DNA of 63,297 nucleotides, filler included, from Octopus bimaculoides (lineage: Eukaryota), in assembly GCF_001194135.2 (NCBI RefSeq). It is 8 parts of 7 records of this genome, joined end to end, with 100 filler letters (N's around TTAATTAATTAA, not from the genome) between each part and the next. Parts side by side here need not be neighbours in the genome. Positions count along the whole stretch, not along the records: positions 1 to 22,514 come from NC_069000.1; positions 22,615 to 27,046 come from NC_068998.1; positions 27,147 to 39,197 come from NC_068994.1; positions 39,298 to 42,653 come from NW_026377562.1; positions 42,754 to 46,255 come from NC_068985.1; positions 46,356 to 49,663 come from NC_068985.1; positions 49,764 to 60,285 come from NC_068981.1; 1 more part is not named here. The stretch is one strand, 5' to 3'. The position numbers were made by a program, and so were the translations under genes. Below are positions 3,776-57,910 of the stretch, in pieces (position 1 is the first letter of the stretch; every line of letters begins with the position of its first letter). The notes beneath the pieces were generated by a model. The model had not been told where the DNA came from and made no database searches. It saw only the letters and a list, made by a program, of their open reading frames with translations.

Positions 3776-3847
3776 ACTGTACTGACGAAGGAAATAAGTT
3801 CGGGTAATATGATTTACACCTCTTTAATCCTGAAACGCGTACGCAGT
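3776..3847 (+). ncRNA. Type I hammerhead ribozyme motif (Penelope-type, long loop II)
   Basis: ACTGTA-CTGACGA-AGGA-(35 nt)-TCCT-GAAA-CGCGT-A-CGCAGT. Canonical core, palindromic stem III ACGCGT, GUA triplet; stem I has one mismatch next to the core. Confidence 0.6.
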
Positions 3848-5704
3848 TAATCAAAGCCGGGTGAATTCGTTATTTTTTCTTTTTTGCCTTTGTAGTTGTG
3901 AGTATTTGTCTGCCTGGGAGTTATATTTTGGTAGAGAAATAGTAGTTTTGACTGCTATTTCTAATTTTCGGTGTGAGGTGAAGCAATTCTTGCTGAACCC
4001 TAATTTTAATTTATATAACTTTTACCGAATAATGGTTTTTTAACACACCAAACTACTTGGTAAAATTACTAATTATTAATTAATTATTAAGTTTTACCCT
4101 ATATCTGTAAGAATATATATATATATATAGACACACATACACACTGACTTTTGCAAAAACTGGGCAGCAAGAAATGATGTGATCAATTGTTTTTATTATT
4201 ATTTTCATAGTTCCATCACTGTGGTACATCTTCATCGCATAGTGTTGATTTTTGTAAATCCCATTCAATAGTAATTTAACCTATTAGAAAATACTGGATA
4301 AAGACAGGCTTATTTTCTTTAATGCTGAATAATGAAGAAAGCATTGCAAGAGAGTGGTGTTATCCATATTGACCAAAGCTACTGATGAGATTGAATGCCA
4401 ATAGGGTTGCTTCATCAGGCATAGGGGAGGGAAGTTGGAAGAAATGAACAAAGAAGATGTGAAGTGTTGAAAACAGTTTATTTATCATATGTACAAACAA
4501 ATGGAATCAGATGGGTCAGAGACTTGAGGTATACTCTCTCTCTCTCTTTCTCACATACACACACACACACATACAGATGCAAGTATGGAAACACACATGC
4601 CTAGAGGAAAAAGAAATATTCACACACAGTCACACATCCAAAAGTATGGCTGAGTACAGAAAGATAAAACTGGGGTGGGGGTGACAGAGCAGGGGGTATG
4701 GGGTGAGACTGTAGTAGTGAACTGGGGGGGGATGGAAAAAAAAGAGGGCACCACCTGGAACTACTGTTTCAGCAATGGATGGGTGTTTTAAAAAGACATT
4801 TAATAAATAAATAAAAAAAGAAGAAAAAAAAAAAGAAGCATAAAAGAGTATCAGGTCGCTATGGTTCCAGTTGACAATACAACTTTTAAATGTTTGCAAT
4901 GTGTTGTTAACTCTTTAGCATTCTGATTACTTTGTCAAACATTATGTTTATATAGTCACTTTATCTTGAATTACTCATGCATTGTCTCACAGCTTGAGAT
5001 TTCAATATGATTTTTTTATTTTTAGAATGATATTGTAATGTCGATGTGAGAGGCTGGATCTAGCCAGATTGAATATAAAATAGGAAAAATATTTGGGCCG
5101 GATAGGGCTAGTCTAAATGCTAAAGAGACAATGTTAGTGTCAACTTTATAGATGAAATATTTTTATAATATTTGTGCCTGTATTACATTTCGGTCAACTT
5201 GATAACTGTTCAGTATCAGGTGCCTTACTCCTGGATATATATGTAGAACTGTGAGTGAATAAGAACACATTGACCTTAATTTGGAAATAAAGGATTTCTA
5301 GTTCAAACCCAGTGTGGTATCATTTGCATATCCAAGAATGTCTTAACCCTGAACAAACCAACTGAAACAAGTCTAGATGGAAATATTACAAAAATATTTA
5401 ATTCCTAAAGATGAGGCTATTAAATCTGAAATAATTATGTTAATTAACTACTTTGAGATAACTAAGACTCTTAAGTATTCTATGCCTATCACAACCTCCT
5501 GTTGCTGCCATTAAGGACCAGGCTGTGTGTATGTTTAAAATAGTGTTCATTAACTCTTATAAGATAACTAACCCATCTATAAGGCCATCACATTTTGTAT
5601 TAGAAAGAAAAAAAAAGGGCTGCTTTCTCCAAGAATATATATATGTGTGTGTATATATATATTCTGTAAATAATAATATTTTTTTATAAGCGATCACCAT
5701 GCAC

Positions 5705-5794
5705 TGACTAAGGTAAATAGTCTAGTATTGCAGCATATAAGCCCTTGATATTGAGGGCTTATATGCCTCAATATTAGACTAGTTTCTTTAGTCA
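5705..5794. repeat. Imperfect palindrome / small fold-back element
   Basis: Perfect 13-bp stem GCATATAAGCCCT/AGGGCTTATATGC (5733-5766), extended by TAGTCTAGTATTG/CAATATTAGACTA and TGACTAA/TTAGTCA. Confidence 0.8.
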
Positions 5795-5890
5795 ATATAC
5801 AGCAATGGCAGACAAGCTTCAAGCTTATAAAATAAGTATTATTTACAGAATTATATATATTGGAAGGTTTGGAGGTGATGTACAGGAATT

Positions 5891-6120
5891 ATATATTAGA
5901 AAAAATAATAAGGTACTCAGATATCTGGATGGTTGTACATTTACAGATTTTTATTAATATGTCATGTTTTAGTGCTTGCACCTATTCTTGTAGGATTTTG
6001 AAAACCCTACAAGAATAAGTGCAAGCGCTAATATTTATAAAACATGTGACATATTAATAAAAATCTGTAAATGTACAACCATCCAGATATCTGAGTACCT
6101 TATTACTTTTTCTAATATAT
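5891..6120. mobile_element. Fold-back MITE-like element (230-bp hairpin)
   Basis: Arms 5891-5964 and 6047-6120 are reverse complements at 73/74 positions. Inner arms 5970-5994 and 6006-6030 match at 23/25. Flanked by TA repeats. Confidence 0.85.
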
Positions 6121-6213
6121 ATATATATATATATATATATATATACACACACATACACATGCACATATTAGTTTAAAATAATAACATCCTAAGTCATTCT
6201 TTTCTTATTTCAG

Positions 6214-55624: not shown

Positions 55625-55820
55625 AGATATTTACATGCTGAGCAAAATGTTCAGCGGAATTTCGTCCGTCTTTACGTTCTGAGTTCAAATTCCACCGAGG
55701 TCGACTTTGCCTTTCATCATTTCGGGGTCGATAAATTAATTACCAGTTGCGTACCAGGGTCGATCTAATCGACTGACCCCTTCCCCAAAATTTCGGGCCT
55801 TGTGTCTAGAGTAGAAAAGA
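55625..55820 (+). mobile_element. SINE family A copy
   Basis: Matches 1254-1450. An inverted copy lies at 56190-56406. Confidence 0.75.
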
Positions 55821-56604
55821 ATATATACATACACACACACACATATATATTAGAGAATATAGATGAGGTCACACCAATGTGGCTTATATGAAGAAATATA
55901 GCAAAAGGTTTCAAATTGGAATATGATATACAAAATACTTTATGCTCCCTTCTGAGAAATTAATATAAAGCCTGTTACCTTTTACATGGTTGTGTCATAT
56001 TAGTAATACATATGCCTGGATATTCCATGTAAGCAAATACCTCTAAATATTTTGGCAGATGTTCTACCTATTTTACCATCCATATGTCTTGGTTATAAAT
56101 TGTTGCATATGCGTATGTATGAAAGTGTGTAAGTGTGTATCTGTTTGCGTGGAGGTATGTACCAGAATTTTTCCGCGTGCATTTGTAATGTTGGTTTCAA
56201 ATTTTGACACAAGGCCAGCAATTCCAGGGGTGGTGTGAAGTCGATTACATCGACCTCAGTGCGTTACTGTTATTTATTTTATCGATTCCGAAAGGATGAA
56301 AAGCATAGTCAACCTTGGCGGAATTTGAACTCTGAACGAAAAGACGGACATAATGCTGCTAAGCATTTTTCCCGGCGTGCCAAGGAGTCTGTCAGCTTGC
56401 CACCTTACTGTGTACATGTGTAATATGAAATTATGTGATGCTTTCAAAGTTTTGCACATGGCCAGTGATTTTAATATTAAGGCATTAGTCGATTAGAGCA
56501 ACCTAGCGCTCAACTGATATTTATTTCATTGATCCCGAAAGGATGAAAGGCAAAGTCAACCTCAGTGAAATTTGGGCCCACAACGTAAATTCCGCTAAAC
56601 ATTT

Positions 56605-57001
56605 CGTCTGCCGTGGTAAGAAGTTTGGTTCCGGACCACATGGTTTCGGGTTCATTCACATTGCTTAATACCTTGGGCAAGTGTCTTCTACTGTAATCTC
56701 GAGTCGACCTTGTAAATGGATTTGGTTGACAGAAACTGAAAGAAGCTCTTCAAATTTGTATGTAAGTATGTGTCAATGTGTGTGTGTCTTTGTGTCTGTG
56801 TATGTCTCCTCCACCACCACTTGACAACCGGTGTTGGTGTGTTTATGCCCCTGAAATTTAGGGGTTCAGTAACAAGTGACCGATATAATAAGTAGTAAGC
56901 TTACAGTAAAAATAAGTACTGCGGTCGATTCGTCCGACTAAAAATTCCACAAGGTGGCGCCCCAGCATGGCCGCAGTCTAATTACTGAAACAAGTAAAAG
57001 A
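56605..57001 (+). mobile_element. SINE family B copy
   Basis: Collinear with 53690-54210. Confidence 0.75.
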
Positions 57002-57860
57002 TAATCAAATATAGTTCATCCATACATACAATCACATAAAGTTACTGGCTATATGAAACAACCACAAGGGTGTAATGAATAAATTGAAACATTTAGCAAA
57101 TAAAGTTATAATATAAAACGTCTGAATCATGAGATTAAGCGTTATGGGGTTAACGATAAACTGGTGGCTTAAATCTTCAGGGTTTTGAATAGGAGGGGCG
57201 GGTTCGTATAAGATGAAACTGGAGGAGAAAAACTATCATGTTGGCGGTCGATATCTCAGCAACGAAAACCCAAAGATCATGTCAAATTATCTCACTGTCA
57301 AAGAATTGACATGGTAGAGGCATACGTGTGAAAGGTCACCAGTTGTAGCTACTACTCCTCCATGTCAGTCAAAGATATCTATCTTGGTGTCCATTCGTCA
57401 TAACGAGATTCGGAGTTCACGTGTTTCATGCGCGATCACTGCATCCAGTAAGCAGCCAACTGCTCTAGCACCAGCAACATGTCGAAGTAATAATAATCGC
57501 TGGCAATTATTTTATGTTTGTTATAGCCAATGACATCGGGAAATTCCGAAGTACAATCACAGAGTGAAATATCAGTCAATAATGCTATGACTCTTTTTTT
57601 TCCTTGTTCTTAATCCAGATTGTCCTATTACTTTTTCCTCAGCTTTTATGTCATCCTCTACACACATAGGCTTTCATATCTGTGCGCGTGCGCATGTGTG
57701 TGTCTCTACGTGTGTGTGTATGCATGCTTGTGTGTGTTGTATGTATGTATGTATGTATATATATATATATATATATATATATATATATATATATAAATTT
57801 TTTTCAGAATGAGATAAAAAAAACAAGGCTGTGAAGATTTTAGAACATTTATAAATAGAA

Positions 57861-57910
57861 CGTCTTACAGCTGTTTCCAGGATATTTATTATATCCTTTC
57901 ATCGGAGACG
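57861..57910 (-). ncRNA. Type I hammerhead-like motif, CCGAUGA variant, 8-nt palindromic stem III
   Basis: Minus strand CGTCT-CCGATGA-A-AGGATAT-AATAA-ATATCCT-G-GAAA-CAGCTGT-A-AGACG. All three stems pair perfectly. Confidence 0.65.

What the first reader, a model, noticed from the sequence alone, without database searches (positions are those of the whole stretch)
3776..57910. Seven dispersed minimal hammerhead-ribozyme motifs from several repeat families, all with palindromic (dimer-type) stem III
Seen directly: core-stem II-GAAA-palindrome-UH-stem I motifs at 3776(+), 22647(+), 27846(-), 33510(+), 42865(+), 46528(+) and 57861(-). Their stem III palindromes differ: ACGCGT, ACTCGGGT, ACGT, ACCGGT, ACAGCTGT. 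Established: Penelope-like elements and metazoan non-LTR retrozymes carry minimal type I hammerheads whose short palindromic stem III is completed by dimerisation. Inference: this genome hosts a large, multi-family, unannotated population of self-cleaving RNA elements, many likely inside introns, where cleavage could affect pre-mRNA fate. Different palindromes would make dimerisation family-specific.
Basis: partly seen in the sequence, partly recalled or inferred. Interest (0 to 1): 0.72.

Follow-up and report, generated by a model that had tools for sequence, protein, structure and literature searches.

The report
Penelope hammerheads, dominant lineage carries A6U
All seven self-cutting-RNA (hammerhead) motifs are real and belong to known kinds of jumping gene, five at Penelope-type element ends and two in likely retrozyme repeats; the unusual part is a lineage of about 9,500 copies with a normally fixed core letter changed (A6 to U) that likely slows cutting, although the rest of the motif stays conserved.

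Summary
All seven motifs exist as described (descriptor: 5 hits against 0.03-0.07 per shuffled window; the other two are core or stem variants). Each sits in an interspersed family. Five (27846, 33510, 42865, 46528, 57861) are 3' ends of 5'-truncated Penelope-like elements (PLEs) ending in (TA)n, with GIY-YIG ORF ends upstream in the window or in sister copies. Two (3776, 22647) lie in non-coding 535- and 351-nt permuted units resembling non-LTR retrozymes. This is the system of Cervera and de la Pena 2014/2020. 'Family-specific palindromes' holds only in part: ACGU is shared by at least three families. Cleavage of host pre-mRNA is unsupported: most copies are solitary, and RNA-seq shows no read ends at the cut site. 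The twist: sites 46528 and 27846 belong to a lineage with 9,546 pattern matches whose core is CUGUNGA (U6 in 99 of 100 listed, A6 in none). Across four subfamilies only position 7, position 17 and loop II length change (0 of 30 constrained columns vary, 33 of 76 flank columns do). I found no U6 variant in print, but one key paper was unreadable. This scan noted A6U PLE hammerheads in other genomes and similar families in this one. Cleavage is untested.

The parts
3776..3847 (+). Family C hammerhead: stem I 3776-3781/3842-3847 (1.1 mismatch in this copy), core CUGACGA 3782-3788, long arm II 3789-3831, palindrome ACGCGU 3835-3840, A17 3841
3730..4115 (+). Partial copy of family C, a 535-nt non-coding circularly permuted unit (retrozyme-like), between (TA)n runs; ends approximate
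22647..22691 (+). Family B canonical-type type I hammerhead: 6-bp stem I, core CUGAAGA 22653-22659, stem II AGGG/CCCU with AAAUAA loop, palindrome ACUCGGGU 22677-22684, A17 22685
22615..22856 (+). Partial copy of family B, a 351-nt non-coding permuted unit (retrozyme-like), ending in (TA)n; its 5' part is cut by an assembly gap
27846..27881 (-). Lineage A (older subfamily) minimal hammerhead with U6 core CUGUUGA 27877-27871, extra A, stem II GAGC/GCUC, ACGU, A17 27850, stem I CUUU/AAAG
27746..27915 (-). 5'-truncated PLE 3' end (lineage A), ending in (TA)n; 5' boundary approximate
32562..33179 (+). Broken PLE ORF end: linker with CX4CX2C (about 32760-32792) and GIY-YIG-type endonuclease, one in-frame stop; begins after a (CA)n run
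   Evidence: this piece had no Pfam hit; a same-family piece in L251 hit PF01541 at E=6.6e-4, below the curated cut-off
33510..33547 (+). Family E hammerhead with U3-A8 covariant core UUGAAAA 33514-33520, A.G at the base of a 3-bp stem II, palindrome ACCGGU 33537-33542, A17 33543, about 330 nt after the ORF stop; element ends near 33600
42861..42895 (+). Family D hammerhead: U4C core CCGACGA 42865-42871, extra A, stem II GGGC/GCCC, ACGU, C17 42891; stem I reduced to 1 pair
42754..42990 (+). PLE 3' end of young family D, ending in (TA)n; 5' side cut by an assembly gap
46528..46564 (+). Lineage A (young subfamily) minimal hammerhead with U6 core CUGUUGA 46533-46539 (U6 = 46536), extra A, stem II GAGC/GCUC, ACGU, C17 46559, 5-bp stem I
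46356..46654 (+). PLE 3' end of young lineage A, fixed end about 95 nt after the predicted cut, followed by (TA)n; 5' side cut by an assembly gap
57861..57910 (-). Family F hammerhead: U4C core CCGAUGA 57905-57899, A.G mismatch then 7-bp stem II, palindrome ACAGCUGU 57874-57867, A17 57866, stem I CGUCU/AGACG
57796..58146 (-). 5'-truncated PLE 3' end (family F) ending in (TA)n; sister copies show an optional 3' tail, inverted partners and a GIY-YIG-like ORF end about 1.2-1.5 kb upstream

Best explanation
The seven motifs are hammerhead sequences at the 3' ends of 5'-truncated Penelope-like retroelements (five sites, four families) and in two non-coding permuted repeats that are likely non-LTR retrozymes copied by the same machinery. 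Inferred mechanism: the PLE protein nicks (TA)n DNA and starts reverse transcription at a fixed point about 55-105 nt downstream of the hammerhead, then usually stops early, so most insertions are short solitary ends that carry the motif as a passenger. The motif would cut only as a swapped dimer (palindromic stem III plus exchanged stem I) in tandem or partial-tandem source transcripts, likely with protein help, so solitary copies in host transcripts likely cut little or not at all. The most abundant lineage has fixed A6U yet keeps the rest of the hammerhead pattern, so it is likely a slowed but still selected ribozyme or structure.
For: Shown: every site has many genomic relatives. Families A and D have near-fixed 3' ends into (TA)n with variable 5' ends, and E and F have a main end plus longer-tailed copies. 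RT motifs, a CX4CX2C linker, GIY-YIG, UTR and the U6 motif lie in one orientation in L240/L248 and L222/L249. GIY-YIG ORF ends lie upstream of D, E (window) and F. Homologues of the D ORF piece carry RVT_1 plus GIY-YIG in 3 of 12 hits. B and C units are 351 and 535 nt, with longest ATG ORFs of 35 and 42 aa; direct duplicates occur in 5 of 20 and 5 of 20 loci and inverted partners in 5 of 20 and 8 of 20. Two-sided stem changes: A/D/H clade 7 cells against 3.2 shuffled, 0 of 500 reached; family C 6 against 2.1, 0 of 500. U6 in 99 of 100 listed copies found without using the core. Constrained columns 0 of 30 variable against 33 of 76 in flanks, with positions 7 and 17 each in three states. Literature: min-HHRs mostly single, from truncated PLEs, weak as dimers (PMC4209133); hammerhead protein-assisted and not needed for insertion in vitro (PMC11167929).
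Against: No intact full-length ORF was recovered for any family. The one young-A locus with an ORF piece (L007) has stops, a deletion and an assembly gap before the 3' end, so the driver of the young subfamily is not identified. GIY-YIG Pfam hits are all below the curated cut-off. No PLE ORF is linked to B or C, so their mobiliser is inferred. No cleavage or circle is shown: RNA-seq has no read-end pile-up for A or B, and the head-to-tail joints also arise from genomic tandems. Covariation rests on 2 pairs per alignment among related sequences. Stem columns were partly used to pick copies; core-only the contrast is 0 of 7 against 33 of 76, p=0.04. The active dimer is predicted less stable than two folded monomers for all 21 pairings tested.
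Confidence: 0.85

Rival explanations
1. Host-regulatory ribozymes: dispersed intronic copies dimerise in a family-specific way and cut pre-mRNAs.
For: The motifs are transcribed inside host RNAs: 39-43% of laid lineage-A reads run on into unlike sequence. The 6-8-nt palindromes prefer self-pairing.
Against: Only 4 of 100 listed copies have a same-strand partner within 200 nt. ACGU self-duplex is -1.7 kcal/mol and shared between families. No read ends or depth step at H17. Published retrozymes are depleted from introns in Xenopus (bioRxiv 10.64898/2026.07.22.740005, passages).
Confidence: 0.07
2. The U6 motif is catalytically dead and is kept only as a rod hairpin (U6 pairing with A15.1) that the PLE protein reads or that is simply inherited.
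For: The monomer MFE of the U6 copies is a rod in which the core pairs with the palindrome. A6C lowers the rate in other hammerheads (PMC3088659, PMC7151607). Family D spread with U4C and a 1-bp stem I. No peak of 5' ends at the cut site among 36 truncated A copies.
Against: Subfamily change is confined to position 7, position 17 and loop II length, the free positions of a hammerhead. Position 17 is C, A or U in 86 of 87 copies, although G17 would pair with C3 and extend the rod. The rod gain from U6 is not consistent across subfamilies.
Confidence: 0.4
3. The motifs are chance matches in AT-rich repeats.
For: Rfam finds no hammerhead; monomer folding z-scores are only -2.2 to +0.4.
Against: 5 hits against 0.03-0.07 in shuffles; 10,587 against 0 control matches; same position in PLE ends; two-sided stem changes.
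Confidence: 0.01

Closest known systems
Minimal hammerheads (min-HHR) in pLTRs of metazoan Penelope-like elements (Cervera and de la Pena 2014, PMC4209133; seen: main text parts 1-2 of 4, supplement file 2 part 2 and search passages)
   Same: Extra base between 9 and 10.1, G10.1-C11.1 (lineages A, D), palindromic CG at 15.2/16.2 or a short palindromic helix III, U-rich 5' flank, thousands of mostly single copies from truncated PLEs, U3-A8 variant (family E).
   Different: Their consensus is CUGANGAH and every row in the supplement part I read has A6; lineage A has U6 in 99 of 100. U4C (D, F) and the A.G base of stem II (E, F) are not in those rows. Stem II is only 3-4 bp in A, D and E.
Neptune/Nematis-type EN+ PLEs (Craig et al. 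2021, PMC8557442 and its preprint; seen: passages)
   Same: RT followed by a CX2-5CxxC linker and C-terminal GIY-YIG; microsatellite targeting; inverted 5'-truncated partners and optional tail.
   Different: Clade not tested by phylogeny; the family F ORF end looks different and was not assigned; no intact ORF recovered.
Metazoan non-LTR retrozymes (Cervera and de la Pena 2020, PMC7229834, seen: passages and section 14; Li et al. bioRxiv 10.64898/2026.07.22.740005, seen: part 1 of 5 and passages)
   Same: Non-coding units with a type I hammerhead, GC below 45% (B 42%, C 33%); B at 351 nt matches the mussel 350-390 range.
   Different: Here mostly dispersed partial tandems and fold-backs in (TA)n; C (535 nt, long arm II) exceeds the 170-400-nt range in the 2020 paper; circles and cleavage not shown.
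Natural hammerhead core variants A6C (phage Bcep176) and U4C (viroid) (Perreault et al. 2011, PMC3088659, seen: passages; Naghdi et al. 2020, PMC7151607, seen: part 1 of 4)
   Same: A change at position 6 or 4 with the rest of the core kept; low but detectable activity reported, Mn2+-favoured for A6C.
   Different: Described there as rare variants; here U (not C) at position 6 is fixed in a lineage of thousands of copies.

Membership tests
Type I hammerhead / PLE min-HHR | Core C3U4G5A6N7G8A9 ... G12A13A14, A15.1-U16.1, H17 | tested here: inconclusive
   Met at 3782 and 22653; U3-A8 covariant at 33514; not met at position 6 (27877, 46533) or position 4 (42865, 57905)
Type I hammerhead / PLE min-HHR | Stems I and II with compensatory change | tested here: met
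   (2 pairs with two-sided change each); exception: family D stem I is 1 bp
Type I hammerhead / PLE min-HHR | Palindromic stem III that needs a dimer | tested here: met
   all seven; duplex energies
Type I hammerhead / PLE min-HHR | Self-cleavage at H17 | not testable with these tools
   RNA-seq read ends show none; the 5'-truncation footprint is inconclusive
EN+ Penelope-like element (sites 27846, 33510, 42865, 46528, 57861) | RT with C-terminal GIY-YIG upstream of the hammerhead, same strand | tested here: met
   A: RT and EN fragments; D: EN and linker, RT motif in relative L156; E: EN and linker; F: EN-like end by eye only
EN+ Penelope-like element | Fixed 3' end or tail, 5' truncation, inverted partner, AT-rich target | tested here: met
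   (inverted partners: E 2 of 20, F 5 of 20, A 0 of 30, D 0 of 20)
EN+ Penelope-like element | Intact single ORF flanked by two pLTRs | tested here: inconclusive
   none among the copies read; the assembly has many gaps
Neptune clade | CX2-5CxxC linker and RT phylogeny | tested here: inconclusive
   linker present in A, D, E; no tree built
Non-LTR retrozyme (sites 3776, 22647) | Short non-coding unit with a type I hammerhead in head-to-tail repeats, GC below 45% | tested here: met
   351 and 535 nt units, partial tandems in 5 of 20 loci each; no locus with two complete same-strand hammerheads seen for B
Non-LTR retrozyme | Abundant circular RNA monomers | tested here: inconclusive
   unit-length joints in reads cannot be told from genomic tandems; low coverage over the hammerhead

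The most novel reading that the evidence does not exclude
CUGUNGA is a working natural hammerhead core. The most abundant PLE lineage in this genome fixed A6U and then diversified only at the positions a hammerhead leaves free (7, 17, loop II), so it still cleaves, slowly or only with the PLE protein or a particular metal, and the weakened or locked ribozyme helped the lineage outnumber its A6 sisters about six to one.
Probability: 0.3. Interest if true: 0.62.

Novelty: new variant of a known kind. Interest (0 to 1): 0.38.

Why it matters
The population itself is ordinary for an animal with Penelope-like elements. What could matter is the natural series in one PLE clade of one genome: canonical core (H), U6 core with intact stems (A, 86 of the first 100 ACGU matches), and U4C with lost stem I (D, young). 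It makes an open question directly testable, namely whether PLEs need their hammerhead to cut. It would also show that descriptors which fix A6 miss most ACGU-type PLE hammerheads in such a genome.

Tried and rejected
Rfam: no hammerhead model hit. Pfam/NCBIfam: window E piece no hit; RT pieces no hit; GIY-YIG hits below cut-off. PDB: only I-TevI at E=0.83. The look-up of sequencing runs: no RNA holder listed on record; raw RNA runs came by species label. RNA-seq (3 unstranded runs, one study, about 6% of each read): no places where many molecules begin or end for A or B; most reads on B came from diverged relatives. Cleavage footprint in 5'-truncated copies, hand-tallied: lineage A, 39 distinct loci in the first 100 of 1,599 rows, 3 dropped as probably full length, 6 of 36 start within -2..+2 of the cut, none clearly at +1, 8 at a TAT microhomology site. 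Canonical-core family H, 6-7 of 16. Fisher p=0.08-0.15, and 0.46 against older A subfamilies only; TA microhomology at the cut site confounds it, so inconclusive. Target-site duplications cannot be read in (TA)n. 'U6 stabilises an inactive rod' was not consistent across subfamilies. Lunse et al. 2017 (PMC5785218) is not held. Searches 'hammerhead + A6U + catalytic core' (0 papers), 'hammerhead + CUGUUGA' (2 papers, unrelated by title), 'hammerhead + octopus + ribozyme', 'Penelope + cephalopod + hammerhead' and 'hammerhead/Penelope/core variant/pLTR' listed no paper whose title or the passages I read describe U6. Supplement file 1 of PMC4209133 was not searchable and bioRxiv supplements are closed; these could hold such a variant. 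Intron location and strand bias were not tested.
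Full report
Setting. The window is a pack of eight stretches, 28-36% GC and rich in microsatellites, from a 2.34-Gb animal genome G000. A long protocadherin-like exon and the repeat landscape fit a cephalopod; that is inference, and other notes of this scan say the same.

Observation. All seven motifs are present with the palindromes stated. A relaxed descriptor found 5 of them against 0.03-0.07 per shuffled window over 300 shuffles. 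The two misses are a U3-A8 core (33514) and an A.G mismatch at the base of stem II (57905). Rfam did not call any: none among the 150 rows shown of 229 in the window, and 0 at gathering score in 7 loci.

Each site is in a repeat family. Own-genome searches gave 730, 1,424, 264, 1,940, 1,598 and 2,704 first-look candidates for the six queries, 40 scored each (these are not copy numbers). For site 46528 all 40 scored hits were 100% identical over 201 bp, and for 42865 99-100%; these are the best hits, but they show recent spread. Site 27846 is 81% identical to 46528 over 105 nt and belongs to the same lineage, A.

Five sites are PLE 3' ends. A and D end at a nearly fixed point about 95-105 nt after the predicted cut, run into (TA)n, and are variably truncated at the 5' side. 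In L240/L248 and L222/L249, RT motifs, a CX4CX2C linker, a GIY-YIG domain, a C-rich UTR and the U6 motif follow each other on one strand. D ends share their CA-rich UTR with GIY-YIG ORF ends; 3 of 12 longer homologues carry RVT_1 and GIY-YIG. An Atlas search with the A RT piece returned RT clusters at 0.95-0.96 (a lead only). Site 33510 lies about 330 nt after such an ORF in the window itself. Family F shows an optional tail, inverted partners in 5 of 20 loci and a GIY-YIG-like ORF end upstream in L125/L246, with matching pieces in L115 and L130. Against: Pfam GIY-YIG hits (4 of 8 pieces) stay under the curated cut-off, the window E piece had none, and no intact ORF was seen. The linker points to Neptune/Nematis (PMC8557442, passages); no tree was built.

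Two sites are retrozyme-like. B (22647) has a 351-nt unit and C (3776) a 535-nt unit; both are non-coding, 42% and 33% GC, with direct duplicates in 5 of 20 loci each and inverted partners in 5 and 8 of 20. B has canonical type I geometry; its palindrome varies between ACUCGGGU and ACUCGAGU (11 and 7 copies). C shows two-sided stem I changes (6 cells against 2.1, 0 of 500 shuffles), and the window copy has a 1.1 mismatch. Mobilisation by PLE proteins is inferred from the (TA)n targets and fold-backs and agrees with bioRxiv 10.64898/2026.07.22.740005.

Size of the population and the palindrome idea. One ACGU pattern has 10,587 exact matches (control 0). By hand count, 86 of the first 100 rows have U at position 6 and 14 have A, the latter from D and a canonical-core sister H. 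A, D and H share their downstream tail and are one clade, with G-C/C-G exchange in stem I and A-U/G-C in stem II (7 cells against 3.2, 0 of 500; relatedness not controlled). The palindrome is thus shared across families. The 6-8-nt palindromes do prefer themselves. In the swapped dimer A-A scores -10.9, H-H -8.3 and A-H -2.4 kcal/mol, so stem I discriminates; every active dimer is less stable than two monomers.

The U6 lineage. With the core left free, 9,546 matches were counted (control 0). In the first 100 rows position 6 is U 99, C 1, A 0, and position 7 is U 66, G 15, C 14, A 5 (hand tally). Among 87 distinct fetched copies (not a random sample) position 17 is C 45, A 21, U 20, G 1. Clustering 83 copies by flanks alone gave four subfamilies of 3 or more copies (69 copies; 14 left out). 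Between them 33 of 76 flank columns differ and 0 of 30 constrained columns, while positions 7 and 17 each take three states and loop II changes length. Stem columns helped select copies and columns are not independent; core-only the contrast is 0 of 7, p=0.04. In RNA reads no other letter reaches 3% at position 6, and position 17 shows A and U but not G. This is the pattern expected of continued hammerhead-type constraint. The opposing evidence is that position-6 changes lower activity (A6C below 0.1 per min, PMC3088659; Mn2+-favoured, PMC7151607), the U6 monomer folds into a rod that hides the core, and family D spread with U4C and a one-pair stem I.

Does it cut in cells? Lineage A RNA is present in three unstranded runs (1,789-2,632 reads laid in about 12 million read each), 39-43% running into unlike sequence, with no read-end pile-up and no step at 46559. 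B gave no pile-up either, and most reads came from relatives, one with a CCGACGA core. Such libraries are a weak test. A footprint test on 5'-truncated copies, prompted by scan note e1-8659544, was inconclusive: 6 of 36 A copies and 6-7 of 16 H copies start within 2 nt of the cut, p=0.08-0.15, with TA microhomology as a confound. Only 4 of 100 listed copies have a close same-strand partner. In PMC11167929 (parts 1-2 of 4 read) a PLE hammerhead cut only with protein, mutants still inserted, and no reads ended at the cut site.

Mechanism, with basis. Shown: motif anatomy, family structure, link to GIY-YIG/RT ORF pieces, covariation, transcription. Inferred from the literature: nicking of AT-rich DNA, internal RT start at fixed sites downstream of the motif, early stop, dimer-only and protein-assisted cutting in tandem transcripts. 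Untested: any cleavage, circles, intron effects.

Comparison and verdict. The system is that of Cervera and de la Pena 2014 (extra base, G10.1-C11.1, palindrome, U3-A8, mostly single truncated copies) and 2020. U6 is absent from the published consensus and rows I could read and from my searches, but Lunse 2017 could not be read. Five unchecked notes of this scan report A6U PLE hammerheads in other genomes; they are not evidence, and I did not test them. Verdict: a new variant of a known kind, interest 0.38.

Noticed in passing
window 818-890 +: tRNA match, 72 bits, anticodon TCT.
   Followed up: no
window 3590-3709 -: 5S rRNA-like copy (83 bits) right before the family C insertion.
   Followed up: no
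window 39242-40723 -: Long single exon with four cadherin stretches, protocadherin-like.
   Followed up: partly
window 16773-17366 +: ORF remnant that looks like a DDE/mariner transposase by eye; no Pfam hit.
   Followed up: partly
window 3240-3479, 27484-27721, 50847-51147: MITE-like element with terminal inverted repeats, three copies at 71-81% identity.
   Followed up: no
window 30661-31058: Complex tandem array with periods 58, 74, 100 and 132 nt.
   Followed up: no
L173:136-201, L180:2363-2428, L020, L078: Further hammerhead families with canonical cores (GACAC/GUGUU stem I, 6-bp stem II, ACGU; and GGUCAC stem II) turned up in flanks.
   Followed up: no
L041:1537-1561 (reads laid): A transcribed sister of family B carries a CCGACGA core; U4C recurs in D, F and this sister.
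   Followed up: no
L228:2790-2930; L164 near 1500: One D fragment begins at about the predicted cut site and one A copy ends at it, each against (TA)n; microhomology could explain both.
   Followed up: partly
L295, L288: Short same-strand duplications place two ACGU hammerheads 122 and 156 nt apart, ready-made natural dimers for testing.
   Followed up: no
L302, L049: PLE ends inserted head-to-head or next to older PLE or retrozyme ends in the same (TA)n run.
   Followed up: no
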